Source of the DNA: a phage
Direction: 5' to 3' (one strand)
DNA: 64,000 nt
NCBI GenBank assembly: GCA_033664045.1
Contig: GCA_033664045.1_3674.1
Part shown: positions 9,434 through 56,013 of the stretch, in pieces
Layout of the letters: every line of letters begins with the position of its first letter
How positions within the stretch are numbered: position 1 is the stretch's first letter
Translations under genes and position numbers: made by a program
The notes under the pieces: generated by a model
Told to the model about the DNA's origin: nothing
What the model saw: only the letters and a program-made list of their open reading frames with translations
Databases searched by the model: none

Positions 9434-10097
9434 CTGGAGCAAGTATTTCACCTACAGTGACGGCAAACTGTTCTGGGCGTACACTGCAAAAGCCGGAAGG
9501 GGCAGGGTTATACATTACGCAGGTGAGGAGGCCACAGGTACAGATAAAAATGGCTATAGAGTGATATATGTGTCAGGTGTTGGGAGTGTTCGTAGGCATA
9601 GAATAGTTTGGGAGATGCATTACGGGGAGATACCCGAAGGACTTGTTGTGCGGCACAAGAACGACATAGCAGGCGATGATAGGGTAGAGAACTTAGTCCT
9701 AGGTACACAGGGCGATAATGCACGAGACATGATCTACAGTGACAAACTGAGCATTAACAATACCTCAGGGTGTCGAGGTGTACGCTACCATAAAGGCATA
9801 AAAAGATGGATTGCATCTGTTGGAGACATATACTTAGGATGTTTTAAGACAAAAGAGGATGCAATTGCATGCAGAAAGTTATGGGAGAAGGGAAAATTCG
9901 TCCCGCAAGAGTTGGATGTTAGAAACACTAGCGGTGTAACAGGAGTGTTCTATGTGCCGAGCTCTGGAAGGTGGAGAGTAAGAGTGCAAAGCGGCAAAAA
10001 GAGAAAGAGCTATGGCACTTACAATACTTTAGAAGAAGCAAAAGCTGTAAGAGATAGAGTGATGAAAGAGATTGAGGAGTTTAAAGATGGGGAATAA
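9426..10097 (+). CDS. HNH homing endonuclease with AP2 DNA-binding repeats
   Basis: HNH core RRHRIVWEMHYGEIPEGLVVRHKNDIAGDDRVENL; two AP2-like repeats SGCRGVRYHKGIKRWIASV and SGVTGVFYVPSSGRWRVRV. Confidence 0.75.
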   Translation: MVDWSKYFTYSDGKLFWAYTAKAGRGRVIHYAGEEATGTDKNGYRVIYVSGVGSVRRHRIVWEMHYGEIPEGLVVRHKNDIAGDDRVENLVLGTQGDNARDMIYSDKLSINNTSGCRGVRYHKGIKRWIASVGDIYLGCFKTKEDAIACRKLWEKGKFVPQELDVRNTSGVTGVFYVPSSGRWRVRVQSGKKRKSYGTYNTLEEAKAVRDRVMKEIEEFKDGE

Positions 10098-12165
10098 GTT
10101 TATATCCTCTGCATATAGCCGCTATGGAGAACCCAACCCGGTTGCAACAAGATACAAAAGTGGGGGCAGTATGAAACGAGACTATCGTGATGAAAAAGAG
10201 GTTGAAACTGTAGAGACTGTTTTAGAAAATACTAAAATTGTCCCTGTTCCACAACAGAATATAGGGCTAATGGCTGCTCAATATTTTGGTGTGCGATCAG
10301 CATTATCCCAAGAAGATGGTGTGACAGTCACTGCAACATATTTTCCATATTATGACCGCTACGGAAATCTGTCTGGTTTCAAAAAACGTGATTGGTCTAA
10401 GCCGAAAGAGCAGAAAGGACACTGGTCTGTAGTAGGCATCGTAAAGGCTAACTCCCAGATGTTTGGTCAAAAGCTGTGTGCATCTTCCAACAACCGTAAG
10501 CAGATTAACGTTTGTGAGGGGGAAGGTGATGTTATTGCAGCATGGCAGGCTGCATATCAGATACAAGTAAAAGGGATTCTCACCAACGCTAAAGCCCCGG
10601 CAAAGGTGAAGCAGTGGGCTAAAGAGGTCCAAGACGGGATCGACGCAGTTATCAACGGTGGTGATCTGGCAGGAAAACCCTGCCTGCCTTTTGTTGGAAT
10701 TAACTGTGGATGTGCAAACGCAGTAGATACTTTTGCAAACAATGAGAAGTTTATCCGTAGCTATGGAACAGTTGTGCTGGCAATGGATAACGATGCAGCT
10801 AACGAGGTAGAGAAGCAAAAACACGTCATCAAAGGTGTTGAGGCCACGCACAATATCGCAGCATTTTTGATGGCTGATAACGTTTACCACGTAGAATACC
10901 CCGGTGAAGTAAACGACCCTGATGGTGTAAAAGATATCCGAGACATGCTGAAGGCTAAAAAGCTGGAAGATATTGTCAACATGTTCCGGCATCCTGTTAA
11001 ATATGTACCTGATGCTGTGTCGGATTTAGAAGACTTCTCTATCGAGTCTTTGCGGAAAAAGACTTCCAACGGGGTAGATATCAGTGCAGAGTTCCCAAAA
11101 CTGCAAAAAATGCTAAAAGGCTTGCACAAAGGGACACTCGTAATGCTTACAGGTCCATCAGGCGGCGGTAAAACAACCGTGGCTAAAAAACTGGAACACT
11201 GTATTGCAAGATACCTAATGGACCCGACATGCCCGAAGGCCGATGACTATGAAGAGGATGATCGTCTATGTATGATCCATCTTGAGGAGGATCCAGAGGA
11301 AGCAATTAACTCCTTGTATGCAAACCAGTTAGGGTTTGATGTTAAAGAGTTTGTTGAAGATCCTAGCCAGTTTTTAACTGATCAAGAACACGCAGAGATT
11401 CACCAATCATGGGCAAAAGCTGGAAAAATCAAAGTGTTCAAACATTTCGGGTCTATTCCGGTGGACGAGTTGATTACCAAGCTTAAGCAAATGGTTTGCC
11501 TGTACCATTGTCGTTATATTGTGCTGGATCACCTGTCCATGGTAATTTCAGGGCTTAATGTTAAGGATGAGCGAAAAGAACTGGACATGGCTATGACCCA
11601 ACTGGCTGCGTTTTGTAAGCAGTTTAACGTGTTTATCTTGGTGATCGCTCACCTCAAACGTACAGAGATTGTGCCTCCTAAAGACAAGGATGGTAACCCG
11701 TTACCTTTCTGGTATCCTGTGCGAAAAGAGAATTTGCGAGGATCGGCTGGGCTTGAACAGTTGAGTTGGGTAGTCATAGGTGTCGAGGCCGAAGAAATGG
11801 TGGATCGTTCTCGTGGGCGTGTCCGTTTAGTAGGTCTTAAAAACCGTCCAGCAAAAACATTGGGTATTGCAGACACTTTGGTTATGGACCCACATACAGG
11901 TAAGTTCCATGATGCCAGTAATTGGTACTGGGACAAAGAAATGCAAATGTTTACAGATGGAGAAGGTGGGGAGGTTGTTTGGAGACCTCAGGCTATGTTT
12001 GAGGATCAGGAGCATGCAGTTGTAGAAACACCTATGGGCAAGGTTGTGGCTGATAAGGTTGTAACTCCTACTGTTAAGCCTGTTGACACGCAGGAAGACC
12101 TCCAGTACGATGATCCGTCCTCTGACCATGTTCCTGGTTTTGAGGATGATGAAACACCTTTTTAA
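10087..12165 (+). CDS. primase-helicase (T7 gp4-like; Toprim + DnaB-family helicase)
   Basis: ATG at 10087 after GAGGAG (track start 10072 is TTG); Toprim EGEGD / AMDNDAANE; Walker A LTGPSGGGKTT; acidic C-terminus ending DDETPF. Confidence 0.85.
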   Translation: MGNKFISSAYSRYGEPNPVATRYKSGGSMKRDYRDEKEVETVETVLENTKIVPVPQQNIGLMAAQYFGVRSALSQEDGVTVTATYFPYYDRYGNLSGFKKRDWSKPKEQKGHWSVVGIVKANSQMFGQKLCASSNNRKQINVCEGEGDVIAAWQAAYQIQVKGILTNAKAPAKVKQWAKEVQDGIDAVINGGDLAGKPCLPFVGINCGCANAVDTFANNEKFIRSYGTVVLAMDNDAANEVEKQKHVIKGVEATHNIAAFLMADNVYHVEYPGEVNDPDGVKDIRDMLKAKKLEDIVNMFRHPVKYVPDAVSDLEDFSIESLRKKTSNGVDISAEFPKLQKMLKGLHKGTLVMLTGPSGGGKTTVAKKLEHCIARYLMDPTCPKADDYEEDDRLCMIHLEEDPEEAINSLYANQLGFDVKEFVEDPSQFLTDQEHAEIHQSWAKAGKIKVFKHFGSIPVDELITKLKQMVCLYHCRYIVLDHLSMVISGLNVKDERKELDMAMTQLAAFCKQFNVFILVIAHLKRTEIVPPKDKDGNPLPFWYPVRKENLRGSAGLEQLSWVVIGVEAEEMVDRSRGRVRLVGLKNRPAKTLGIADTLVMDPHTGKFHDASNWYWDKEMQMFTDGEGGEVVWRPQAMFEDQEHAVVETPMGKVVADKVVTPTVKPVDTQEDLQYDDPSSDHVPGFEDDETPF

Positions 12166-12223: not shown

Positions 12224-15001
12224 ATGAGTATGTATAGCTTCGATTTTGAGGCCTCTGGGCTTTTGGAAGATCCAGACCTTTATTATCACTGCGGCCTGTT
12301 TAAAGCGTTGAATAAGAACCGTTTTATGCTGTTCCTTCCTCTGAATGACCGCACACACTACTCCGAGGAGGATATAGAGAAGGCTAAGAACTTTATTCTG
12401 GCAAAGAAAACTCTTTATAAGGATTTTGAAGTTCGCATAGCAGATTTTTCGGAGTTGGAAGGGTGGCTTACAGGAAATTCTGACTGGTCACCCACAGCTT
12501 TGAACTGCCACAACTGCTACAGCTACGACTTTATGCTGATGGAGAGATTGTCCGGTATTCATTTTGATATGTTCCGTGATCCTAAGTGTATGGGGACTAT
12601 CAACGACCACCAGGTTAATCTGTTTGATACATTGGCTATGAGCCGAATTTTGTGGCCTGACCGACCTTTGCCAAAAGGTTGTCCAGACGCTGTATTCAAC
12701 CCGGTTACTAAGAAAATGCAGCCTGTTGGTCCTCACGGCCTTATGGCATGGGGCTACGCTCTTGGTAACCAGAAAGTTCAAATTGATGACTGGCGCGATC
12801 TTCCGTTGTGGAAGTATGTGGATCGTGTATTCGAGGACGTTATCATCCAGGAGCTGCTCTGGAAAGAGCTGGTAGCGGAATCAAAAGGTGTATTCTACGG
12901 CAAATCTGACATGCAGAACTTTATGTACGATCCTGCCAAAGAGAAGCCGAAAGGATTCAAGAAGATCACCTGGAAGAACGCATTACGTCGAGGCATGCTG
13001 CAGCACTTCCTGATGGAGCTGCAGGCCCGTCAGGGCGTATACTTCGACATAGATGGAGCTATTGCTTTACGTGACCGTTGCGATGCGTGGATGAAAGAAA
13101 TCGCTGATCGTGTTGAACCACAACTGCCTTTAAAAGAGCTGTCAATGTCTCAGCGGCCCAAGTTCCCTGAAAAGCCGTTTAACCAAGACGGGACAATCTC
13201 CAATAATGGTTGGAAATGGTTAAAAGATAAGCTTGGCTATCCTGTAGACATGAGCGCTTTAGAGTTCAAAGCCCCGCCTAAGAGAGCATTTACCTCTACA
13301 GGAGATGTCAGCAAGATGGGGATAAAATGGTGTGAAGAGATGGGATGCAAAGACCCCGATAAGATGGCTGATTTCTTGAGAGGCTATATTAAGGGCACTT
13401 CCACACCACACCCTTTGCCTAAAGAGCTGATGGATCAGGCAATAAGTGATCTACAGCAGAAGCGAATGCCGGACTGCAAGATACCTATGAAAATCAGCAA
13501 CCAGGACGACATTAAGCGATACCTGATCAGTGCTGGCTGGCTTCCGACAATGTGGAGAACTAAGGATGTAACTAAAGACAGCAAGAAGAAAGCTTTACCT
13601 GATGCAGATGTTGATGCACGAGTATATGCATATATGGACGAGCTTTTGGAGTCAGAGTATTGTGACCTAATTATCAACTTCTGGAACAAAACTGATGCTA
13701 AGTTCCAGACAACCGTGCACAAGTTCCGAAGCTTTCCTAACTCCGAAAGGATTAAAAAGGAAGTATTCGGGAAAATACGTAGAAAAGCTAGGGCACTTAT
13801 TACTTCTCCGCAACTGAAAGATACGTTTGGACACCTATGCCCAAATCTTGAAAAATTGAACGGAGAGATGGCTAAAGATATCGTCTTGTGGTTATCATTG
13901 CGAAACCGCAGATCGGTCCTTGATCCAATCAAGGAGGATAAGGTTGATACTGGTCTTCTTAATCACCCACGCTTGAAGATTGACCATAAGCTTCCTGCTA
14001 AAAGTTCTGGATTAACAAACACTTCCCGACAGAAACACAGTATTTGTGCAAACATGCCTAAACCATCTCCTAAAGTGGTTATGGGTAAAGAGATGCGTAG
14101 TCTGTGGGGTGTTCCTCCAGGATACTTTGAGATCGGTATTGACGGGTCCAACTTAGAGCAGCTTATCGGGGCTTGGGGTGCCTTTGAGTTCGACAACGGC
14201 TTGTATTATGATGTTGTAAGTAACGGGGACGCACACCAAAACAATGCTGAGGCATATACAAAAGTAGCAGGCAGAGAGGTGTCTCGTAACGACGGTAAAC
14301 CTATCACGTATGGGGTTATGTACGGGGCACAAAAAGATAAAGTTGCAGACATGCTGGATATCTCTCCAGAGTTGGGGCAAAGGGTAATCGATGCGCTTTG
14401 GGATGCCAACCCAGGTCTTAAGGGGCGTAAAGAGGATCTGGAGAAATTCTGGGAAGCAACTGGTAAGAAGTTTATCTACTCTTTTGATGGTCATGCCATC
14501 TGGACCCGATCTAAACACTCTTTACTTAATGCATACCAACAAAATGGCGGTGCATCGTTGTGTGATTTAGTTGGGATACTCATGCACCACCAAATGGTGA
14601 GGCGTGGGTGGTACGATGAAGGTGTTCGTCGTATTATCTATTACCATGACGAATATCAGCTTCAAGTACCTGACACACCGAAGTATAAGACTGTGTACAC
14701 CTTCGACACAATTGAAGAATTGGAAGCATTTAAGGCAGAGCAGGAGGCCAAACTTCATGTGTTCGACGGTCATAAGTACAAAAAGGCACGCAAGGATGAA
14801 AACGGAAACGAAGTGGTTGACAGAGACGGAAACACGGTGTACGATCCTATCTTGAACGATGACGGAAAGCTTGAACTTATCTGGAGTCCTGTGGGCGAAA
14901 TGGTGGTACATTGCTTCTGGCAAGCTTCTAAAATGATGGGAGTCCCGTTCCAGATCACAGGTGAATACTTGTGTGGTCGTAATTGGGGTGATTGTCACTA
15001 A
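12224..15001 (+). CDS. DNA polymerase, family A, with 3'-5' exonuclease domain
   Basis: Exo I FDFEASG; motif A IDGSNLEQL; motif B RNDGKPITYGVMYGAQ; motif C YYHDEYQLQV. Confidence 0.9.
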   Translation: MSMYSFDFEASGLLEDPDLYYHCGLFKALNKNRFMLFLPLNDRTHYSEEDIEKAKNFILAKKTLYKDFEVRIADFSELEGWLTGNSDWSPTALNCHNCYSYDFMLMERLSGIHFDMFRDPKCMGTINDHQVNLFDTLAMSRILWPDRPLPKGCPDAVFNPVTKKMQPVGPHGLMAWGYALGNQKVQIDDWRDLPLWKYVDRVFEDVIIQELLWKELVAESKGVFYGKSDMQNFMYDPAKEKPKGFKKITWKNALRRGMLQHFLMELQARQGVYFDIDGAIALRDRCDAWMKEIADRVEPQLPLKELSMSQRPKFPEKPFNQDGTISNNGWKWLKDKLGYPVDMSALEFKAPPKRAFTSTGDVSKMGIKWCEEMGCKDPDKMADFLRGYIKGTSTPHPLPKELMDQAISDLQQKRMPDCKIPMKISNQDDIKRYLISAGWLPTMWRTKDVTKDSKKKALPDADVDARVYAYMDELLESEYCDLIINFWNKTDAKFQTTVHKFRSFPNSERIKKEVFGKIRRKARALITSPQLKDTFGHLCPNLEKLNGEMAKDIVLWLSLRNRRSVLDPIKEDKVDTGLLNHPRLKIDHKLPAKSSGLTNTSRQKHSICANMPKPSPKVVMGKEMRSLWGVPPGYFEIGIDGSNLEQLIGAWGAFEFDNGLYYDVVSNGDAHQNNAEAYTKVAGREVSRNDGKPITYGVMYGAQKDKVADMLDISPELGQRVIDALWDANPGLKGRKEDLEKFWEATGKKFIYSFDGHAIWTRSKHSLLNAYQQNGGASLCDLVGILMHHQMVRRGWYDEGVRRIIYYHDEYQLQVPDTPKYKTVYTFDTIEELEAFKAEQEAKLHVFDGHKYKKARKDENGNEVVDRDGNTVYDPILNDDGKLELIWSPVGEMVVHCFWQASKMMGVPFQITGEYLCGRNWGDCH

Positions 15002-17826: not shown

Positions 17827-18192
17827 ATGGAACAAATGAACGATCAAGCGTCGGTTGCGATGAACGAGCAAGAACAACCTCAAGAATTTTTCTTAGGGTT
17901 AAGTAAAGATCAAGTGTCTCTTCTGCTAGTGCTTTCTTCTTTCATGGGAAGACTTCAGGAGCTCACACAACAGCCAGAGGCTGAACAATTATTCCAAGCT
18001 TTGCGTGAAGAAGAAAAATATCGTCGTTTGGACTATGCCTTAGGTTGGGTAGCTCAACAACGAGATATGCTAATGGCCCTCTCTGGGACTACAAGTTTTG
18101 CAATGGGCCTGTTGGCTCAAGTTCAGGACAAATTAATTCAAGCAGGGTTTGCACACACGGCAAACACTAACGAAGAACAAGGAGATAAATAA
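17827..18192 (+). CDS. hypothetical protein
   Basis: ORF with upstream AATCGGAGA RBS. Confidence 0.5.
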   Translation: MEQMNDQASVAMNEQEQPQEFFLGLSKDQVSLLLVLSSFMGRLQELTQQPEAEQLFQALREEEKYRRLDYALGWVAQQRDMLMALSGTTSFAMGLLAQVQDKLIQAGFAHTANTNEEQGDK

Positions 18193-19418
18193 TGAGCGTT
18201 ATTCAACAATTCGCTAACCCAATGAATCCGCGTGAAACTGTTTTACTGGCTCACGGCATGATTAAACGTGTTAGCATCAAGCCTATCAAAGGTGCTGATC
18301 CTACAACAGGTATTAAAACCACTGTGTGGCAAGGTAAGAAAATTGAATCCAGCCACACCATCTCTTTACTGATTTCTGAACTGGATTCCTCTGATAACCT
18401 GCTTCAAGGTGGTGAAGAAGTCTGGATCAGCATGGGTGATAAGCTGCTTAAACCAGGTCATCAAGACTCTGTCTCTGTTAAGATTGATGACAAGTGGGAA
18501 ACCGTAACGCCAGGATGGATCGTAAATATCCCTTTGAAGGCAAACGAGCATAACGGTAAGACCTATTACAAGGGCTCACTGGCTAAGATGGTTAAGCTGG
18601 GTGCAGGAGAGGCTCCAGCAGCGACTCAGCAGCAAAAACAGCAACAAGGTGCACAATCACAAGGCCAGAAGCAGAAACCTCAGCAGAATGCCAATCAGGA
18701 CGTTTTACGCATCTATGGTGATGTGACTCAGATTGTTGGCAACGTGGTTACTGTTAATGACCACAAGATTGGCGAAGGTGCTATGGTTGTAACTGATGAG
18801 CAGCTTAAAGACCTGGTGGTAGGTGGTCGTGTTGCAGCCATTGTTGACAAAGACACCGGAAACATTATCAGTGGTTTCAAGGCCTATCCCCCTAAGGCAG
18901 AGAACGGCACTCAAGGCTCTGGTGGCAAGCGTAAATCCTCTTACGACCCTATCGGTGTGGAAACGGGGCATAGCATCAATGCGTTGCAGATCATCCTGGA
19001 TCGCGGGTTTAAGGTAGACGACCCGCTGGGCGTGGCTAAAACACTGCACGTAGTCACCATTGAGCTTAAGAAAGAGTATGCTCAAGCCACCAACCGAACT
19101 GAAGATGAAGTAGGTGCCAGTGTCGGTAATGCGGTGTTGAACGCTTGTCGCCGTATTGACAAGAAAACGAAAGTTGATGATTTTGCAGCGGCAATTACTG
19201 CAGAAGCAAAAGATGTCTTGACTAATCTGGCTGAACCGTTGTACGATTGGATCAAGAACGGTGCTGGGTCAACCGACCATCAAGAACCTCAGGCTGCCAA
19301 ACAGGAAGCAGCTCCACAGCAAAACACTGTAGACGCTCCTCCTGTAAATGATGAGGAAGATGACCCAATGGATCAGAATCCAGCACAGTACGCCTTTGAT
19401 GATGACATCCCTTTTTAA
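18192..19418 (+). CDS. putative ssDNA-binding protein (SSB-like acidic C-terminal tail)
   Basis: Q-rich linker and C-terminal DDDIPF, identical to the E. coli SSB tail; N-terminal OB fold not verified. Confidence 0.5.
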   Translation: MSVIQQFANPMNPRETVLLAHGMIKRVSIKPIKGADPTTGIKTTVWQGKKIESSHTISLLISELDSSDNLLQGGEEVWISMGDKLLKPGHQDSVSVKIDDKWETVTPGWIVNIPLKANEHNGKTYYKGSLAKMVKLGAGEAPAATQQQKQQQGAQSQGQKQKPQQNANQDVLRIYGDVTQIVGNVVTVNDHKIGEGAMVVTDEQLKDLVVGGRVAAIVDKDTGNIISGFKAYPPKAENGTQGSGGKRKSSYDPIGVETGHSINALQIILDRGFKVDDPLGVAKTLHVVTIELKKEYAQATNRTEDEVGASVGNAVLNACRRIDKKTKVDDFAAAITAEAKDVLTNLAEPLYDWIKNGAGSTDHQEPQAAKQEAAPQQNTVDAPPVNDEEDDPMDQNPAQYAFDDDIPF

Positions 19419-19433
19419 CAATTAGTTAACATA

Positions 19434-19462
19434 GCCCTGCCCGAAAGGGTGGGGCATTTTTG
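19434..19462 (+). terminator. rho-independent terminator (same hairpin as at 8627)
   Basis: gccctgcccgaaagggtggggc + ATTTTTG. Confidence 0.6.
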
Positions 19463-19480
19463 TATAAGGAGATCTGAAAA

Positions 19481-19897
19481 ATGACATTAGAAGATATCAT
19501 TGTTAAACCTGAGAACTATGACCAATACAACCTGTCAACTCAATCTGTAGACCTCGGATGCGCCACAGTCAGTGCATGGCTGGTTAACGGAAAAGAGCTT
19601 GACGAGTGCCTGGAAGCACACATGTCGGTGAATAAATTTCTTGATGAAAATACCCACTGGCTAGAGGGTGCAGGAGTATATGCTTCATGGTTGGAGAGTA
19701 TGGGATTCGACTACCAATCTGAAGAGGGGTGGTGGAGCTATTTAGCTATCTGCCCAGAGACGCTGCAATGCTTCATGAAATATTCTGAAGATTTGGAGTA
19801 CCGGGCGGTGGTTGATAGTGCCATTGCCCGTTATAGCCGTAAACCTTTTTCCCACGACATTAAAACTGTGGAAGAATTTGTTGAAGTTTTCTGTTGA
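19481..19897 (+). CDS. hypothetical protein
   Basis: RBS AAGGAGA. Confidence 0.5.
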   Translation: MTLEDIIVKPENYDQYNLSTQSVDLGCATVSAWLVNGKELDECLEAHMSVNKFLDENTHWLEGAGVYASWLESMGFDYQSEEGWWSYLAICPETLQCFMKYSEDLEYRAVVDSAIARYSRKPFSHDIKTVEEFVEVFC

Positions 19898-19993
19898 CAC
19901 AGGTTGAAAGGTGTGCAATTATAACTTCATATAACGGGAGGACGCGATGAACGAAGAAAACTGGGATGTATAACTAACAGGAGGCCACTGCCC

Positions 19994-20191
19994 ATGATTT
20001 ATCGAATCCGTGTAAGAGAAGATGCACCAGGCTGTTACTTTGACTGGCGTGGGTGGTGGTTTCTCCACCCAATGGATGGACTCACAGATAGAATGCTGGA
20101 TGCTGCCCTTTATACAGATATCGACATAGAATATAATCTCTATCTGAAGGACGGTATAGATAACGGCCTGTTTGAAGCAATTCCTGTATAA
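19994..20191 (+). CDS. hypothetical protein
   Basis: RBS CAGGAGG; preceded by TTGACA promoter-like site near 19903. Confidence 0.4.
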   Translation: MIYRIRVREDAPGCYFDWRGWWFLHPMDGLTDRMLDAALYTDIDIEYNLYLKDGIDNGLFEAIPV

Positions 20192-20259
20192 GAGACTGTG
20201 ATAGCCATGTTTTATGATCTCCCTGTAGCACCACCCCCTGTTGAACCCGGAGAACTAAG

Positions 20260-20685
20260 ATGATCTATGAAATGCCAAAACTGATTCGCGACGATGCCCA
20301 AAACGCTCACACCATTATTATGGGCAAGCGCATGGATATTATTTGTCATAAAGATTTCTGGGAAGGGAGTTACTTCACAGAATATTTTGGTAAACTGGAT
20401 AATGGTCTGCTGATCCAGTTCTACACCGATGCGGAAAACAACATTCACTGGGAGTTCGAAACTGAAGATATCCATAAACTTTTCACCTTCCTAGGTATTA
20501 AGGTTGAGGCCAAGTTCGAAGAAGGTGAGTGCGACGATTGTGGATTCTACGAGGTAACAGATTTCTATCTCCCAAGTGGTGAGAACCTTTACTATGAAAG
20601 CCACTTCGGCAACTCAAATATGCCACAAGGTTGGGATGAGTTTTTTGAAATTGCGGAAGAGGAGCTGGCATACCGTGATTATTGA
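20260..20685 (+). CDS. hypothetical protein
   Basis: ORF with GGAG RBS. Confidence 0.5.
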   Translation: MIYEMPKLIRDDAQNAHTIIMGKRMDIICHKDFWEGSYFTEYFGKLDNGLLIQFYTDAENNIHWEFETEDIHKLFTFLGIKVEAKFEEGECDDCGFYEVTDFYLPSGENLYYESHFGNSNMPQGWDEFFEIAEEELAYRDY

Positions 20686-21133
20686 TACTGTAGAGGGAGA
20701 TCTAATCTCCATTTTCAAGAAAGGGTCAGGCCACATGATCCACGGTTGTAACTGCTTTCACACAATGGGTGCAGGTATAGCGAAAGATATTGCCCGTGAG
20801 TTCCCTCAAGCACTGGCAGCCGACAAAGAGACTGCCTATGGTAATCTAGACAAGCTGGGTATGTTTTCTTGTTGGGAGCATTTTGCCAAGAACAGGGTTG
20901 TATATGGGATCAACCTGTATACCCAGTTCTACCCAGGGCCCAATGCTGAATACTTCTCAATCATGAAAGGTTTTGAGCGAGTCAACGAGGTATTCAAAGG
21001 TGTGTCATTGCCGTTCTACATCCCTAAGATCGGGTGCGGCATAGGCGGTTTGAAGTGGGAGCACGTGGAAGATGTCATTAATCTTGCAACCACGGATATT
21101 GATGTGGTTGTAGTAGAGTACAAAAAGTGTTGA
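20675..21133 (+). CDS. macro-domain-like protein (putative ADP-ribose binding/processing)
   Basis: GTG at 20675 in frame with track ORF 20576; Gly-rich loops HGCNCFHTMGAGIAKDI and IPKIGCGIGGLKW resemble macro-domain diphosphate-binding loops. Confidence 0.45.
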   Translation: MIIDTVEGDLISIFKKGSGHMIHGCNCFHTMGAGIAKDIAREFPQALAADKETAYGNLDKLGMFSCWEHFAKNRVVYGINLYTQFYPGPNAEYFSIMKGFERVNEVFKGVSLPFYIPKIGCGIGGLKWEHVEDVINLATTDIDVVVVEYKKC

Positions 21134-21384
21134 CGACCATCTTCTGAGGTGATATATTCTCCACAACGACTAAGAGAGGAGAGCGCTGTGGAGACTAAAA
21201 TCTTAATTCTTGCTGTGGTAGATACAACCGAAGGAGCTATATTCGAATCTGCAGGAGGGTATTTCTATCTACCATACGGAAAAAGAACTTCCGAGCCAAG
21301 TAAAGATTCAATCCTCAAAGTGTTCCCGTGTGCTTTCTGGCTGGAGATTTTGGTATAAGATTGCATAGGATTTGAGAGAGAATT

Positions 21385-21579
21385 ATGAGAAACAAGAGAG
21401 AGCTTTACTCTGGAGAGTGGATAAACGATCAACAGGTTGGAGAGGTAACCTGCTTCCGGTGTTTTACTCGGTACAATCTTAAAACTGCACCAAAAAGTGT
21501 TCCAAAGACTGATGGTTATTACATAAAAGAACCTCATTGCCCAAAATGTAAATGCCGATTATACTGGAGTAACCTGTAA
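21385..21579 (+). CDS. hypothetical zinc-ribbon protein
   Basis: CFRCF ... CPKCKC cysteine pairs. Confidence 0.45.
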   Translation: MRNKRELYSGEWINDQQVGEVTCFRCFTRYNLKTAPKSVPKTDGYYIKEPHCPKCKCRLYWSNL

Positions 21580-21583
21580 AAGA

Positions 21584-21611
21584 TTGACATCTTAAAACTA
21601 CAGTGTATAAT
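21584..21611 (+). promoter_or_regulatory. sigma70-like promoter TTGACA-N16-TATAAT
   Basis: aTTGACAtcttaaaactacagtgTATAATat upstream of ORF 21643. Confidence 0.55.
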
Positions 21612-21642
21612 ATACGCACAGACTAACAGAGAGCGACGTATT

Positions 21643-21834
21643 ATGGTAATTTTTAACCGGGATGGCATCATAGTTAGACAGCACCCCTTCCTTGAATACT
21701 ATCAAATTGAGCAATGGTGCTACGGAGATTGCAGTCACTCCTATGGGCAAAGTTGGGGATATCGCACAGTTTTTGAATCAACAGACCTTGACAAAGTAAG
21801 ACAGAAAGTTTTAGAACTTATTAACAACAAGTGA
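21643..21834 (+). CDS. hypothetical protein
   Basis: ORF downstream of consensus promoter. Confidence 0.45.
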   Translation: MVIFNRDGIIVRQHPFLEYYQIEQWCYGDCSHSYGQSWGYRTVFESTDLDKVRQKVLELINNK

Positions 21835-21843
21835 GTATGACAT

Positions 21844-22176
21844 ATGGTAACATTAGAAAGACGTAAAGCTATCGCCGCAACACTGGCAGACATCTTTTGG
21901 GATTGCAACTTAAAAGATACCCGAAATTGTGGCGCATCTGTAGATGTATTATTCCCACGGCCCACCATTGTTGCAATGGGAAACCTGTTAAACGTAGTGT
22001 ACGGAGCATGGGACAAAGAAGGTGGATTCTATATCTGGCAACCTGACTACGGAGCCTGGAAAGAGGTAAGGGGTGCGGATGACTTTGGGCCTACAGTTGC
22101 TAAGATGGACGGCTGGGAAATTTATGTTGGAAACGACATGAAGCTGAAAGGCGAGATTGTTTACTGGCTACCTTAA
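21844..22176 (+). CDS. hypothetical protein
   Basis: co-directional ORF. Confidence 0.5.
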   Translation: MVTLERRKAIAATLADIFWDCNLKDTRNCGASVDVLFPRPTIVAMGNLLNVVYGAWDKEGGFYIWQPDYGAWKEVRGADDFGPTVAKMDGWEIYVGNDMKLKGEIVYWLP

Positions 22177-22185
22177 GGGTAAAGT

Positions 22186-22431
22186 ATGAACACAGAGTGG
22201 ACATCTGTAGACGGCGTTAAAAACATGCCTCTTGGAAAGTATATCGTAGCCATGGCTGATGAGGATGGCAATGTAGATTTCGGAGCTTGCGAGGTTATTC
22301 TTGCAGGATCTGGTAACTATGTAGACAAAACCGGGATAATTAACGGTCAGTTCTACTTTGATCACAACCCTGTTGTAGCGTATATGGCTATGCCAGAGTT
22401 TAAGTTCCCAAAGGAGGGTGCTGATGTTTAA
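22186..22431 (+). CDS. hypothetical protein
   Basis: RBS upstream; stop overlaps next ORF. Confidence 0.5.
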   Translation: MNTEWTSVDGVKNMPLGKYIVAMADEDGNVDFGACEVILAGSGNYVDKTGIINGQFYFDHNPVVAYMAMPEFKFPKEGADV

Positions 22432-52034: not shown

Positions 52035-52967
52035 TCATTTACCACAAATCTTCTTGTATACCTCTTCTACCGTGTCAAACACTTCAGGCCTGTAGTAGAA
52101 AAACTCAGTGCTACCGTCAAATTTTACAGGAAAGTTTATTTTATACTTGCTGAAGGCCTTATGCACAGATTTTTCTAAATCTACCATGTTTTGAGTTGAT
52201 CCGCTCCATGTTTTTACTACGTGAAGAGTGTGGACACCTGCGCCAGATTTACGAGCACTGTTAAGCACCTCATTTTTCCTCCTGTGCATTTTAACGCATA
52301 CACCGATTTTCATAAGTGTTGGCACTTCTAAGTCATCAACCATAATGTAGAGTTTACCGTACTCATGAGATAAGAATCCATTTTGTGCGCATTTACAGCA
52401 GCCACGACCACTTTTTAGGTTATTAGGTTTAGCAGACCACTTATACCCACAAATTTTGCACCTACATTGCACTTTTGTGTTATCATTGGCAATTTCCTCT
52501 AATATTTCTATATCTGGGTTGGCTTTGTGGATAATTGCAGCATGCTCCTTATGGGTTAACGCTTGACTTTGCCCACGTCTTAAGTCATAGCACTCTGGGC
52601 AGCCGTTTCTTTGGTATAAGTGGTTTTCAGGGTATTGTTCAAACACACCGTGTTCAGGGCAAACAATTTTTACAGGCGTTCTCATGTTCACATATTTGAC
52701 TAATGAGTAATCGTACTTGTCCCCATGAACAGCCATAGCCTCTTTTATGAACTCTTCAGTGTTCTTTTTCGCTGACCCACCACACCTTGGACAACCATGC
52801 TTCTTGAAAGCATGTGCCACAGGGGTTTGCCAGAACTCACCGTGCTCAGGACAAATTATGCACACAGGTGTCTTGTTGTTTTTATACTCCACTTTGAAGT
52901 AATCATATTTGTCACCATGTATAGTCTGAGCTTTTTCTATAAACTCTTCGGTTGTTAGTCTCCTCAT
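52035..52967 (-). CDS. putative homing endonuclease (T5orf172 / GIY-YIG-like C-terminal domain)
   Basis: three repeated modules HGDKYDY...V.I.CPEHG.F.Q.P..H...GCP.C, then KLYIMVDD...LMKIGVC...RRKNEV. Confidence 0.55.
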   Translation of the reverse strand: MRRLTTEEFIEKAQTIHGDKYDYFKVEYKNNKTPVCIICPEHGEFWQTPVAHAFKKHGCPRCGGSAKKNTEEFIKEAMAVHGDKYDYSLVKYVNMRTPVKIVCPEHGVFEQYPENHLYQRNGCPECYDLRRGQSQALTHKEHAAIIHKANPDIEILEEIANDNTKVQCRCKICGYKWSAKPNNLKSGRGCCKCAQNGFLSHEYGKLYIMVDDLEVPTLMKIGVCVKMHRRKNEVLNSARKSGAGVHTLHVVKTWSGSTQNMVDLEKSVHKAFSKYKINFPVKFDGSTEFFYYRPEVFDTVEEVYKKICGK

Positions 52968-53076: not shown

Positions 53077-54366
53077 TTATTTACTCAACGGACAACAGTC
53101 TACATTCCCAACATGTTTAACACGTTCGATAACCTCTGCTTGTTTACCTGTGTTATACGGTCTACTGTTCGGGCTGGAGAGATAGCCAGACACTCTTCGG
53201 ATCACTGAGATATATTGTTCATCGTGGCATCCACACGCAGGGCAGCAGAACCCTTTAGCTGTTGCACTGAACTCACCAGAGAAACCACACTTAAGACATT
53301 TATCCACAGGTTGGTTAATACCAAAATACATAATGTGTTTATACCCGAAATCGACAAGGGCTTCCAAAGCATCCAAGTTGTTTTTCAGGTTAGGTGTTTC
53401 TATGTATCCAATGTTGCCGCCAGAAGAGATCATAGCAAAACCTTCCTCATACTTCCACTTATCAAAAGGCGAGCTGTTGATCCATACTGGCTGATGGAAA
53501 CTGTTGGTGAGGTATTCATGCTCGTGCTTCAACACTTCTGGGTATTCACGATCCAGACAGGTTGCAGCTTTATAGCATAAACTCTCAGAAGGTGTGCCGT
53601 ACAAGCTAAATGCTAGTCCACTTTCCTTCTTATATCGATCACAAGCATCTTTCATATGCTGAAGGATTCCAAGAGCTAAAGCCTTGTCACCCTCTCTGCC
53701 CAAAATTTGGCAGGTTTCATACACACCAATATACCCAATACTGATGGAAGCGTACCCGTCATAGAAGAGTTTATCGATACTCTCTTCAGGATCCAGGCGA
53801 GCAAGAGCTCCTTCACACCACATGATAGGGTTCTGCCCAGCCTTGGTGCCTTTCAAACGATTAACTCTTACAAGGTGAGCCTCATATGCCAAATCCAAGT
53901 ATTCGTCAAGAACGGCAAAGAAATCAACACCTTCCGTCTTAGCTTTTGCCGCAATCATTGGCAGGTTAAGACTAACAACCCCCAAGTTGAATCTGCCGAG
54001 GTATTTCTCCTCACCTGTTTCCAAGTCATTGTATTTGCTAAGAAAACTCCGGCAACCCATGCTCGTTACTTTGCCATCTGTAGAGCCTGTCACTTTACGA
54101 TTTAGTGGAACAGAAACAAAGTCAGGATAAATCCGCTCTGCAGAGCATTCCAGAGCTAATCGTTTCAAATCATAGTTAGGATCTCCAGGGTTCATGTTGA
54201 CACCTTCTTCTAGGAAGAACAGCACTTTAGGGAACACAGGTGTGATACGTTCTTCACCAAGACCCATTTTGTGGACTTTCAAGTAGTTTTTGGTAATCAT
54301 TCTACCAAATACTGAGGTGTCCAGACCTAAACTTAATGTGATGAATGGAGTCTGCTGTCTCCTCCC
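53077..54366 (-). CDS. nrdD: anaerobic ribonucleoside-triphosphate reductase, 3' exon (glycyl-radical half)
   Basis: QQTPFITLSLGLDTS...GDPNYDL collinear with E. coli NrdD QVPFSSINYGT...GDPNYDL; Zn ribbon CLKCG...CPACGC; glycyl-radical motif RRVSGY. Confidence 0.85.
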   Translation of the reverse strand, partial: GRRQQTPFITLSLGLDTSVFGRMITKNYLKVHKMGLGEERITPVFPKVLFFLEEGVNMNPGDPNYDLKRLALECSAERIYPDFVSVPLNRKVTGSTDGKVTSMGCRSFLSKYNDLETGEEKYLGRFNLGVVSLNLPMIAAKAKTEGVDFFAVLDEYLDLAYEAHLVRVNRLKGTKAGQNPIMWCEGALARLDPEESIDKLFYDGYASISIGYIGVYETCQILGREGDKALALGILQHMKDACDRYKKESGLAFSLYGTPSESLCYKAATCLDREYPEVLKHEHEYLTNSFHQPVWINSSPFDKWKYEEGFAMISSGGNIGYIETPNLKNNLDALEALVDFGYKHIMYFGINQPVDKCLKCGFSGEFSATAKGFCCPACGCHDEQYISVIRRVSGYLSSPNSRPYNTGKQAEVIERVKHVGNVDCCPLSK

Positions 54367-55161
54367 CTGTGTTTCCACAGGGCCAGACTATCTCTTACTC
54401 TACTTCAATAAGATAATAACCCTTTATTGTGAGATGCTTACCTTCGGCATTTCCTTCGATAGCCCTATGAACGTTACCTACGTTCAAATTTAAGGCTTTT
54501 GCACAGGCATAGAGTGAAGGATATTCACCCACCAAGGTTTTCCCTTTGTATGCCTGCACTTTCCTATAGCACTTGCCTGGGCAAAGCCCTGTTCGGAAAG
54601 CATGTCTCTTATTATCTTCCGGCAAAACCCACTCTAGGTTAGACGGATGATCATTCAATGTATTGCCGTCTTTATGATTCACTTCCCAGTTTTCAGGGTC
54701 TTCTGGGACATCTGGCAAACAATACAAGGCAACAATCCTTGAGGTTTGGATTCGAATCTTTTTACCTTTGTGGTTGAAAGAGTACATATAACGGCGTTTA
54801 ACATGCTTGTTACCTTTTCCATAACCTCCCCACAATATTGGGTGTAGCATTCCACGTTTTCCGTATACGTTTCCAACCTCATCAATCACATAGTTTGATT
54901 CTTCACCATTAAGAATGATCTTTTTCATAGAGCCTCTCCATTTCGAAGTTAGTATTTCAACTAACCCCTACACTACTTGGTTCAGAAATGTTTGTCAAGC
55001 ATCTCTGCCTTTCGTTAGTCGTTACAACCGTTCCAACTCCTGTAAGAACTAGTCACGGGATTGGCATAGCTTTCGCCTTAGCGTTCCCCGTTAGCCGGAT
55101 TTACCGACCCCTCTTATGAGGTTAGGAGAGTTTTACAACGGCCAGTTTGTTAACCGTTGAC
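54367..55161 (-). mobile_element. putative group I self-splicing intron interrupting nrdD
   Basis: splits a collinear NrdD reading frame; 5' exon ends in U, proposed intron ends in G; P7-like GACUA ... UAGUC segments; carries HNH ORF. Confidence 0.6.
54395..54928 (-). CDS. HNH homing endonuclease (intron-encoded)
   Basis: HNH core EVNHKDGNTLNDHPSNLEWVLPEDNKRHA. Confidence 0.8.
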   Translation of the reverse strand: MKKIILNGEESNYVIDEVGNVYGKRGMLHPILWGGYGKGNKHVKRRYMYSFNHKGKKIRIQTSRIVALYCLPDVPEDPENWEVNHKDGNTLNDHPSNLEWVLPEDNKRHAFRTGLCPGKCYRKVQAYKGKTLVGEYPSLYACAKALNLNVGNVHRAIEGNAEGKHLTIKGYYLIEVE

Positions 55162-56013
55162 AGAAGTTAACGTATTGATTTGATAAAGCAACGTCTGCAT
55201 GCTGTCAAACACGTCTTTATCTGTCATTTGCATTGCAACAGTCTCAGCATCTGGCAACCAATGTTCCTGGCAAAACTTAAGGTTCTTCTCATAGGTTGCT
55301 TCAGCATATTGTGCCAGATAATGATCAATATGGCTCATAGTCTGACCACCATATTGAGCACTAGCTACCGCACTAGAGATTTGGCTAAGGATTGTTGTTG
55401 CAACCCCTATTGACTTCGGCTTACTGACATGGGCGTTGCCAATGTTGAATCCGTTTTCCAACATATCTGGATAATTTACCAAACAACAGTTTGTTAACGG
55501 ACTGATCAAGTAGTCAAGATCATGCACATGGATGAAGCCTCTATTGTGCTCTTCTGAGACACGGTCTGGCAGGATTTGTGTTGATGCAAGGTGTTTGCTA
55601 AGGATGCCTGCAAGCAGGTCACGATGAGTGTGTACATGATTGGTAGGCTTATTTGCGTTTTCTTTTGTAAATTCATCACAAGTGCGATCCAAGAAGCCAC
55701 TAATATCTGCAAGCAGTTTTCCACCTGCCTCTCTGTTATTATCTCTTGTCTGCCTATACTGGATGTATTCTCTGGCTGCACATTTTAAACCCATATCCAT
55801 AAAAGCGTCTTCAACAAGGGTATGGATATTTTTTACAGAGATCGTGCACTGGTCGGTTGGTAGATTGTTAGCAACAACTTCATTAACCGCGCAGGCGATC
55901 CGGTAAGCTTCTTCTTCAGTATGCCCAGACTCAAGTAAGGCGGACTCTGCCGCCTTGATCACCTTAATTCCGTTATAGACCTCTTCTCTACCGTCCCGTT
56001 TTACAACTTTCAC
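55162..56013 (-). CDS. nrdD: anaerobic ribonucleoside-triphosphate reductase, 5' exon (ATP-cone half)
   Basis: ATP-cone MKVVKRDGREEVYNGIKVIKAAESA; HVHDLDY; ends ...YQINTLTS; track ORF 55150-56013 reads into intron. Confidence 0.8.

What the first reader, a model, noticed from the sequence alone, without database searches (positions are those of the whole stretch)
20675..21133. Macro-domain-like protein in the replication block
The ORF, most likely starting at GTG 20675 in frame with track ORF 20576, has two Gly-rich loops (HGCNCFHTMGAGIAKDI and IPKIGCGIGGLKW) whose spacing resembles the diphosphate-binding loops of macro domains (NAAN...GGGV and G.FG). The assignment is tentative because the canonical NAAN is not intact. 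If correct, it could reverse ADP-ribosylation-based host defence or signalling.
Basis: inference. Interest (0 to 1): 0.6.

Follow-up and report, generated by a model that had tools for sequence, protein, structure and literature searches.

The report
Phage macrodomain of the Tk.4/AdfM family
The ORF is a real macro-domain (ADP-ribose-removing) enzyme of an rV5-like E. coli phage, but it is already annotated as such in near-identical phages and belongs to the T4 Tk.4/AdfM family recently shown to protect phage T4 from the DarTG2 DNA-ADP-ribosylating defence, so it is ordinary.

Summary
GTG 20675..21133 (+) encodes a 152-aa protein. It passes Pfam Macro (25.9 bits, cut-off 22) and matches PHROG 335 (E 1.7e-59). 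The AlphaFold model (pLDDT 94.3, pTM 0.90) matches only macrodomains, best those of the TARG1/DarG/Poa1p/SCO6735 class (TM 0.70-0.76).

The window is a Vequintavirus (rV5-like E. coli phage). Proteins 98-99% identical are already deposited as "macro domain protein" or "phosphatase". The protein is 39% identical over its full length to T4 Tk.4 (E 1e-43). It is 67.5% identical to the Krischvirus protein that occupies the tk.4 slot.

A 2025 preprint named T4 Tk.4 AdfM: deleting it sensitises T4 to DarTG2. The catalytic Lys of DarG/TARG1 is replaced by an invariant Gln (Q84), together with invariant N26. This is the arrangement of Streptomyces SCO6735, a proven thymidine-ADP-ribose DNA hydrolase.

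The Bas54 orthologue tolerates transposon insertions at 31 of 31 TA sites, as expected for an accessory counter-defence gene.

Most likely function: it removes DarT2-added ADP-ribose from phage ssDNA. This is inferred and has not been tested for this phage. Interest is low.

The parts
20675..21133 (+). CDS for a 152-aa single-domain macrodomain protein of the Tk.4/AdfM family (GTG start, TGA stop included)
   Evidence: sequence; Pfam Macro; PHROG 335; 39% identity to T4 Tk.4; macro fold
20660..20664 (+). Shine-Dalgarno-like AGGAG, 10 nt upstream of the GTG start
   Evidence: read directly from the sequence; relatives carry annotated ribosome-binding sites under the match
20741..20782 (+). Codons for residues 23-36 (HGCNCFHTMGAGIA): first ADP-ribose/diphosphate-binding loop, including the invariant catalytic-site Asn N26 (codon 20750-20752)
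   Evidence: invariant columns; alignment to SCO6735 H24/V25/C26/N27, DarG and TARG1; SCO6735 N27S almost inactive; PhiKZ AdfM N23A has reduced activity
20924..20926 (+). Codon CAG for Q84, at the position of the catalytic Lys of DarG (K80) and TARG1 (K84) and equal to SCO6735 Q85
   Evidence: alignments; the 20-residue tag offset of chain 5e3b was checked by hand; invariant in 63 homologues; SCO6735 Q85A and Q85E inactive on dT-ADPr DNA
21023..21049 (+). Codons for residues 117-125 (PKIGCGIGG): second diphosphate-binding loop; there is no equivalent of TARG1 D125
20260..20685 (+). Upstream gene (141 aa, phrog_8157, function unknown) whose end overlaps the macrodomain start by 11 nt. It is probably co-transcribed and translationally coupled. 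It is not a conserved partner of the family.
   Evidence: not homologous to T4 Vs; Tk.4 homologues in Straboviridae have different neighbours
19434..19455 (+). Terminator-like hairpin followed by a T-run, after the 408-aa gene. It is the last such site upstream of the macrodomain gene on this strand, so it may mark the start of the transcription unit.
   Evidence: pattern match only; the number of sites in the region is not above the shuffled expectation

Best explanation
The gene encodes a free-standing, 152-aa macrodomain ADP-ribosyl glycohydrolase of the Tk.4/AdfM family. This family belongs to the TARG1/DarG/SCO6735 ('ALC1-like') class of macrodomains. The most likely role is counter-defence. 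When a host DarTG2 system is triggered, the DarT2 toxin ADP-ribosylates thymidines in single-stranded phage DNA and blocks replication. The phage enzyme binds the ADP-ribose through its two Gly-rich loops and hydrolyses the thymidine-ribose bond, restoring replicable DNA. In effect it is an orphan copy of the enzymatic half of the DarG2 antitoxin. Its active site is of the SCO6735 type: Gln84 replaces the DarG/TARG1 lysine and Asn26 positions it. Catalysis is therefore probably water-mediated and depends on substrate positioning, rather than proceeding through a lysine Schiff base. Shown here: the gene, the fold, family membership and the active-site residues. Taken from the literature: the anti-DarTG2 phenotype of T4 Tk.4, the dT-ADPr hydrolase activity of SCO6735 and PhiKZ AdfM, and the dispensability of the Bas54 orthologue. 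Inferred: that this Vequintavirus protein has the same substrate and role.
For: Fold and family. Pfam Macro is above its cut-off. PHROG 335 gives 1.7e-59. The DarG models of NCBIfam and PADLOC hit the macro half at 7e-12 and 1e-12. The AF2 model has pLDDT 94.3 and pTM 0.90. The best Foldseek hits are Poa1p, TARG1, DarG, BT1257 and SCO6735 at TM 0.70-0.76, and all 50 listed hits are macrodomains or proteins designed on that scaffold. A profile of 63 homologues hits BT1257, DarG, SCO6735 and TARG1 at 1e-13 to 1e-14.

Link to a tested protein. The protein is 39% identical over 152 aa to T4 Tk.4 (E 1e-43). It is 67.5% identical to the Krischvirus JK32 protein that sits in the vs-[tk.4]-tk slot. 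A T4 tk.4 knockout becomes sensitive to DarTG2, and the gene was the only hit in a transposon screen on a DarTG2 host (preprint 10.1101/2025.11.20.689424).

Chemistry. N26 and Q84 are invariant. They align with SCO6735 N27 and Q85, whose mutation abolishes hydrolysis of thymidine-linked ADP-ribose on DNA, and SCO6735 rescues cells from DarT (PMC9411070).

Accessory character. The Bas54 orthologue (98% identical) has insertions at 31 of 31 TA sites and is classed non-essential on E. coli K-12. The gene is nevertheless under purifying selection and is widespread in virulent phages of enterobacteria.
Against: This protein, and Vequintavirus proteins generally, have had no direct test. The Bas54 transposon library was never challenged with DarTG2. 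The T4 result is a preprint phenotype without biochemistry, and the two proteins share only 39% identity. The lysines that SCO6735 uses to hold DNA (K34, K89) are not conserved, and the protein is mildly acidic (pI 5.9), so DNA specificity is not evident from the sequence. SCO6735 also removes protein Glu/Asp-linked ADP-ribose, so the class is not substrate-exclusive. Residues equivalent to Poa1p H23 and S30 are present as H23 and T30.
Confidence: 0.7

Rival explanations
1. It is an active macrodomain hydrolase, but its relevant substrate is not DarT2-modified DNA. Instead it reverses ADP-ribosylation of proteins or RNA, installed by other host ADP-ribosyltransferase defences or toxins, or by a phage enzyme.
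For: The closest structural class includes TARG1 and SCO6735, both of which remove Glu/Asp-linked protein ADP-ribose. The DNA-contacting lysines of SCO6735 are not conserved and the protein is acidic.
Against: The only genetic phenotype known for a family member, T4 Tk.4, is specific sensitisation to DarTG2. No ADP-ribosyltransferase domain was found among the 24 other window proteins scanned against Pfam, which include the four nearest neighbours.
Confidence: 0.15
2. It is an ADP-ribose-1''-phosphate phosphatase (Poa1p-like). This is the meaning of the 'phosphatase' and 'A1pp' labels in RefSeq and PHROGs. It would process a nucleotide by-product rather than a macromolecular modification.
For: Poa1p is the top Foldseek hit (2e-9). 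Poa1p H23 and S30 align with H23 and T30 here. RefSeq and PHROG name the family 'phosphatase'.
Against: The label derives from a motif match, not from an assay. By established knowledge of macrodomains, weak Appr-1''-p phosphatase activity is a common in-vitro side activity of these proteins. Poa1p scores below BT1257, DarG, SCO6735 and TARG1 in the profile search. This role would not explain the DarTG2 phenotype of T4 Tk.4.
Confidence: 0.05
3. It acts mainly without catalysis: as a binder or sponge of ADP-ribose-derived molecules, or as a stoichiometric inhibitor that binds DarT directly.
For: Catalytically dead SCO6735 Q85A still inhibits DarT by interaction. The classical catalytic lysine is absent here.
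Against: Q84 and N26, which are catalytic-site residues in SCO6735, are invariant across 63 diverse homologues. A 17-kDa enzyme with these residues intact is more simply read as active. The DarT-binding C-terminal domain of DarG is absent.
Confidence: 0.07

Closest known systems
T4 Tk.4 = AdfM ('anti-DarT factor macrodomain'; HIDEN-SEQ preprint 10.1101/2025.11.20.689424) and its Straboviridae orthologues; PHROG 335
   Same: Same length and single-domain architecture. Alignable from residue 1 to the end at 39% identity (67.5% to the Krischvirus copy). Same HGCNCFHTMG.G and NLYTQF..GPN motifs, including N26 and Q84. Non-essential in the laboratory.
   Different: It sits in a different phage subfamily (Vequintavirinae) and a different neighbourhood: downstream of the DNA polymerase, overlapping a phrog_8157 gene, rather than between vs and tk. 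Its function has not been tested in this phage.
Streptomyces coelicolor SCO6735 (PDB 5E3B) and Bacteroides BT1257 (2FG1/2AFC): orphan Gln-type macrodomains
   Same: Orphan single-domain enzymes with Gln in place of the catalytic Lys, plus the H-x-C-N motif. SCO6735 hydrolyses thymidine-linked ADP-ribose on DNA and neutralises DarT. A bacterial homologue of the phage protein is likewise an orphan with no darT nearby.
   Different: Only about 23% identity. The longer mobile loop of SCO6735 and its lysines K34, K89 and K94 are not conserved. These are cellular proteins, not viral ones.
DarG2 antitoxin macrodomain (Thermus aquaticus and M. tuberculosis, PDB 5M31/5M3I)
   Same: Same fold and the same two binding loops. 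The profile E-value is 2e-14, and the DarG models of PADLOC and NCBIfam hit across the whole macro half.
   Different: The catalytic K80 is replaced by Q84. There is no C-terminal DarT-binding domain and no adjacent darT. The score is far below the NCBIfam DarG cut-off (45 against 250 bits).
Chimallivirus AdfM (PhiKZ gp104; PMC13309987)
   Same: A phage-encoded orphan macrodomain that removes DarT2-added ADP-ribose from DNA. The conserved Asn (N23) corresponds to N26 here.
   Different: Only 22% identity over 127 aa (E 9e-5). It is Lys-type (K78) and is imported into the phage nucleus. It shares the name but is a separate lineage of the class.
Human TARG1/OARD1 and yeast Poa1p
   Same: Best structural matches (TM 0.70-0.76). 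The MGAGIA and P.IGCG loops are near-identical to TARG1.
   Different: The TARG1 K84/D125 dyad is absent here (Q84; G124/G125). These are eukaryotic proteins acting on protein ADP-ribose or on Appr-1''-p.

Membership tests
Macro domain superfamily (Pfam PF01661) | Score at or above the Pfam gathering threshold | tested here: met
   25.9 bits against a cut-off of 22, E 1e-5. Most database homologues carry a precomputed PF01661 hit.
Macro domain superfamily (Pfam PF01661) | Three-layer alpha/beta/alpha macro fold | tested here: met
   The AF2 model has pLDDT 94.3 and pTM 0.90. Foldseek against the PDB gives 170 hits at E<=1e-3. All 50 listed hits are macrodomains or designs on that scaffold, with TM up to 0.76.
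Macro domain superfamily (Pfam PF01661) | Two Gly-rich loops that hold the ADP-ribose diphosphate | tested here: met
   M31-G32-A33-G34-I35-A36 and P117..G120-C121-G122 align with the same loops of TARG1, DarG and SCO6735 and are (near-)invariant.
Macro domain superfamily (Pfam PF01661) | Binds ADP-ribose | not testable with these tools
   Needs ITC, a thermal-shift assay or a co-crystal structure.
TARG1/DarG ('ALC1-like') Lys-type hydrolases | Catalytic lysine (TARG1 K84, DarG K80) | tested here: not met
   The aligned residue is Q84, invariant in 63 homologues.
TARG1/DarG ('ALC1-like') Lys-type hydrolases | TARG1 Asp125 partner of the lysine | tested here: not met
   The segment aligned to TARG1 GCGLDRLQW is GCGIGGLKW, which has no acidic residue.
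SCO6735/BT1257 Gln-type macrodomains | Gln at the lysine position and Asn in the H-x-C-N motif (SCO6735 Q85, N27) | tested here: met
   Q84 and N26 are invariant and H23 is at least 90% conserved. The alignment register was checked against the chain numbering of 5e3b. The functional role of these residues comes from PMC9411070.
SCO6735/BT1257 Gln-type macrodomains | Extended basic mobile loop for DNA binding (K89, K94) and K34 | tested here: not met
   The equivalents are A33 and a shorter F85-Y86-P87-G88 loop without lysines; pI is 5.9.
Phage Tk.4/AdfM family (PHROG 335) | Full-length sequence homology to T4 Tk.4 | tested here: met
   BLASTP gives 39% identity over 152 aa, E 1e-43. PHROG 335 gives E 1.7e-59. 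The positional tk.4 orthologue of Krischvirus JK32 is 67.5% identical.
Phage Tk.4/AdfM family (PHROG 335) | Dispensable without the defence system | tested here: met
   From the literature, for the 98%-identical Bas54 orthologue bas54_0092: 31 of 31 TA sites hit, classed 'Non-essential'; the one resampling row retrieved gives log2FC 0.42, adjusted p 1.0 (the table, K-12 against CFE303 or CFE311, was not identified).
Phage Tk.4/AdfM family (PHROG 335) | Required for growth on a DarTG2-expressing host | not testable with these tools
   Shown only for T4. The Bas54 library was not challenged with DarTG2.
DarG antitoxin (NCBIfam NF048014, PADLOC DarG) | Equivalog score cut-off and two-domain architecture (macro domain plus C-terminal DarT-binding domain) | tested here: not met
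   45.2 bits against a cut-off of 250. The match covers only profile positions 3-144 of 338, and the protein ends at residue 152.
DarG antitoxin (NCBIfam NF048014, PADLOC DarG) | Adjacent darT toxin gene | tested here: not met
   The neighbours are small phage ORFs with no Pfam domain above threshold and with PHROG families of unknown function.
Poa1p-type ADP-ribose-1''-phosphate phosphatase | Poa1p active-site residues H23 and S30 | tested here: inconclusive
   They align with H23 and T30, but these positions are shared by the whole class.

The most novel reading that the evidence does not exclude
The whole Tk.4/AdfM clade, present in more than 2,800 phage records, would be a Gln-type (SCO6735-like) enzyme rather than a simple copy of the Lys-type DarG2 macrodomain. 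It would use the water-mediated mechanism and would have a broader or different range than published for T4. For example, it might also erase protein- or RNA-linked ADP-ribose placed by other defences, or inhibit DarT by direct binding. It would then have been acquired from orphan cellular macrodomains rather than from DarTG2 operons.
Probability: 0.2. Interest if true: 0.4.

Novelty: already known. Interest (0 to 1): 0.2.

Why it matters
It adds little. It confirms that Vequintavirinae, broad-host-range phages used in therapy cocktails, carry the same kind of anti-DarTG2 macrodomain as T-even phages. This helps predict which E. coli defence systems they can evade. The one modest point the cited papers do not spell out concerns the active site. 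The Tk.4/AdfM clade has an invariant Gln where DarG and TARG1 have their catalytic Lys. That places it mechanistically with SCO6735, and apart from the unrelated, Lys-type PhiKZ protein that was given the same name.

Tried and rejected
1. The longer start at GTG 20576 was rejected. That extension lies inside the complete phrog_8157 gene, and all homologues start at the position of GTG 20675.
2. I asked whether the overlapping upstream gene is a conserved partner or a homologue of T4 Vs. It is not: BLASTP gives E 36, and Tk.4 homologues in JK32, LilPanda and T4 have other neighbours.
3. A bacterial homologue (Pelagimonas, P0059) was checked for an adjacent darT. None is present, and the context is housekeeping genes.
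4. I looked for an ADP-ribosyltransferase or NADAR domain in the window that might be a cognate writer or a second eraser. None was found among the 24 other ORFs scanned against Pfam. The scan was not exhaustive for small ORFs.
5. The promoter and terminator scan gave counts within the shuffled expectation, so it is of little use.
6. The tRNA and Rfam scans of the whole window found nothing.
7. Literature searches found no experiment on a Vequintavirus macrodomain or on DarTG2 sensitivity of Vequintavirinae.
8. ICP1 AdfB was considered as a relative. It was not pursued because its abstract describes it as an antitoxin mimic that probably acts by direct interaction with DarT; no sequence comparison was made.

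Full report
**What is there**

The + strand carries an ORF from GTG 20675 to the stop codon ending at 21133, 152 aa long. It lies in frame inside a longer mechanical ORF that starts at GTG 20576.

The GTG 20675 start is well supported by four observations:
- An AGGAG lies 10 nt upstream.
- The upstream ORF 20260..20685 matches its own family, phrog_8157, over its whole length, so the 20576 extension would run through another gene.
- T4 Tk.4 and 62 other homologues align from residue 1.
- Related GenBank records annotate the same 459-nt CDS with the same 11-nt overlap.

Against the orthologues of phages Bas54 and A51.2, the differing codons are 15 synonymous to 3 non-synonymous and 16 to 1. It is therefore a coding gene under purifying selection.

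**Where it comes from**

The region is 94-96% identical at the nucleotide level to about 120 rV5-like E. coli phages (Vequintavirus: Murica, A51.2, naam, FV3 and the BASEL phages). Upstream on the same strand lie, by position and length against the Bas54 annotation (not aligned individually), rIIA, rIIB, a helicase, two methyltransferases, a primase/helicase (10072..12165) and the DNA polymerase (12224..15001). A long run of small genes follows, most of which are dispensable in Bas54. "Replication block" is therefore only loosely right. The gene sits in the accessory-gene array downstream of the replication genes.

**It is a macrodomain**

- Pfam Macro scores 25.9 bits against a gathering score of 22.
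- PHROG 335 ("phosphatase", meaning the A1pp label) gives E 1.7e-59.
- The DarG models of NCBIfam and PADLOC match the macro half at 7e-12 and 1e-12.
- An AlphaFold2 model built on a 63-sequence alignment has mean pLDDT 94.3 and pTM 0.90.
- Foldseek against the PDB returns only macrodomains, or proteins designed on that scaffold, among the 50 listed hits. The best are Poa1p, TARG1, DarG, BT1257 and SCO6735, at TM 0.70-0.76.
- A profile of the 63 homologues hits BT1257, DarG, SCO6735 and TARG1 at 1e-13 to 1e-14.

The absent "NAAN" is normal for this class, which has h-x-C-N instead.

**Which macrodomain**

A tblastn search finds homologues in 2,832 of 50,697 phage records, mostly large virulent phages of enterobacteria, Pseudomonas, Vibrio and Acinetobacter. 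The T-even hits are the gene tk.4.

- T4 Tk.4 is 39% identical over the full length (E 1e-43).
- The Krischvirus JK32 protein that occupies the vs-[tk.4]-tk slot is 67.5% identical.
- The HIDEN-SEQ preprint (10.1101/2025.11.20.689424) reports that tk.4 was the single significant hit when a T4 transposon library was grown on a DarTG2 host. It also reports that a clean knockout sensitises T4 to DarTG2, and it names the gene adfM.
- Independently, a Cell Reports paper gave the same name to PhiKZ gp104. That paper showed in vitro that gp104 removes DarT2-added ADP-ribose from DNA (PMC13309987).
- PhiKZ gp104 is only 22% identical to the window protein (E 9e-5) and keeps the DarG-type lysine. It is a separate lineage of the same class.

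**Active site**

Across the 63 homologues the invariant residues are G24, N26, C27, M31, G34, A36, D50, N80, Y82, T83, Q84, P117, G120 and G122.

In the profile alignments the family's N-l-Y-T-Q aligns with DarG F-P-T-K(80), TARG1 L-I-T-K(84) and SCO6735 N-M-I-G-Q(85). I checked the register against the 20-residue tag offset of chain 5e3b. The classical catalytic lysine is thus replaced by an invariant glutamine, as in SCO6735 and BT1257. The TARG1 Asp125 is also absent.

For SCO6735 the following are published (PMC9411070):
- It efficiently hydrolyses thymidine-linked ADP-ribose on DNA.
- It rescues cells from DarT.
- Q85A and Q85E are inactive, and N27S is almost inactive.
- A water-mediated mechanism was proposed.

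The window protein has the equivalents N26 and Q84, and also H23. It lacks the DNA-contacting lysines K34 and K89 and the long mobile loop, and it is mildly acidic (pI 5.9).

**Accessory character**

The Bas54 orthologue bas54_0092 is 98% identical. It took transposon insertions at 31 of 31 TA sites and is classed non-essential on E. coli K-12. In the one retrieved resampling comparison of K-12 against a clinical strain (CFE303 or CFE311; which was not identified) it shows no depletion: log2FC 0.42, adjusted p 1.0. That library was never challenged with DarTG2, so the decisive experiment for this subfamily has not been done.

**Most likely mechanism (confidence about 0.7)**

The protein is an orphan antitoxin-like eraser. 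It binds the ADP-ribose that DarT2 attaches to thymidines in single-stranded phage DNA and hydrolyses it, which lifts the replication block.
- Shown here: the gene, the fold, family membership and the active-site residues.
- From the literature: the T4 phenotype, the SCO6735 and PhiKZ biochemistry, and the Bas54 dispensability.
- Inferred: transfer of the substrate and role to this protein.

**Rival explanations**

- A different macromolecular substrate, protein or RNA ADP-ribose (confidence 0.15). TARG1 and SCO6735 also act on proteins, and the basic DNA-binding residues are missing here. Against this, the only phenotype known in the family is specific to DarTG2, and no ADP-ribosyltransferase domain turned up among the 24 other window ORFs scanned.
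- An Appr-1''-p phosphatase, as the "phosphatase" label implies (0.05). Poa1p H23 and S30 align with H23 and T30, but the label comes from a motif, not from an assay.
- A non-catalytic binder or DarT inhibitor (0.07). Dead SCO6735 still inhibits DarT, but the invariance of N26 and Q84 argues for catalysis.

**Membership**

The protein is a member of the macro superfamily and of the Tk.4/AdfM family (PHROG 335). It is not a DarG antitoxin. It scores 45 bits against a cut-off of 250, lacks the C-terminal DarT-binding domain, and has no adjacent darT. It is not a Lys-type TARG1/DarG enzyme either. It shares the Gln/Asn catalytic signature of SCO6735 but not its DNA-clamping loop.

**Novelty and interest**

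This is already known. Proteins 98-99% identical are deposited as "macro domain protein", "putative macro domain-containing protein" or "phosphatase". The family's counter-defence role has been published for T4.

The only small addition is that the whole clade is Gln-type (SCO6735-like), and that the two proteins called AdfM are not the same lineage. Interest: 0.2.

Noticed in passing
window 53077-56013 (- strand): The anaerobic ribonucleotide reductase gene nrdD is split exactly in two. ORF 55150..56013 carries the ATP-cone and Pfam NRDD profile positions 1-154. ORF 53077..54378 carries NRDD positions 155-562 and the glycyl-radical domain. Between them lies a 177-aa ORF (54395..54928) with what looks by eye like an HNH-type motif (NHKDGNTLNDHPSNLEWV; not scanned against Pfam), i.e. 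probably a homing endonuclease. No group I intron was detected by Rfam at the gathering threshold, so this may be a gene split by a free-standing endonuclease rather than an intron.
   Followed up: partly
window 52035-52967 (- strand): A 309-aa protein combines zinc-finger-type domains (DUF723, CapR, DUF4379) with a T5orf172 (GIY-YIG-like) domain. It is probably another homing-endonuclease-like gene, next to the nrd cluster.
   Followed up: no
window 19418-19481, compared with L003 17015-17638 (Bas54): Bas54 has a 624-nt putative homing endonuclease gene (bas54_0088) directly after the gene corresponding to window ORF 18192..19418. The window has none there, only a terminator-like hairpin at 19434-19455. 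The 408-aa gene itself is essential in Bas54 (8 of 57 TA sites hit), has no Pfam domain, and lies in a region where one record (JLBYU08) annotates a putative ssDNA-binding protein.
   Followed up: partly
window 21584-21611 (+ strand): A perfect 12-of-12 sigma-70 consensus (TTGACA, 16 nt, TATAAT) lies about 450 nt downstream of the macrodomain gene, between small ORFs. It may be a strong early promoter.
   Followed up: no
window 19400-22200 against GenBank: Sixteen records named 'Campylobacter phage' (e.g. MG065654, MG065666; host given as Campylobacter jejuni) are about 95-96% identical to this E. coli rV5-like phage region. This suggests mis-assigned hosts or contaminating coliphages in those deposits.
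   Followed up: no
L007 3001-3456 (Shigella phage JK32, Krischvirus): The Krischvirus Tk.4 is much closer to the Vequintavirus protein (67.5% identity) than the Tequatrovirus Tk.4 is (39-42%). This points to horizontal exchange of the gene between Straboviridae and Vequintavirinae.
   Followed up: partly
literature: Two independent papers gave the name AdfM to two different macrodomain lineages: T4 Tk.4 (Gln-type) and PhiKZ gp104 (Lys-type). The window protein, a Tk.4-family member, is only 22% identical to PhiKZ gp104. This is a nomenclature collision worth flagging.
   Followed up: yes
window 1-64000: ARAGORN found no tRNA genes and Rfam found no matches at the gathering threshold anywhere in the 64-kb window.
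   Followed up: yes
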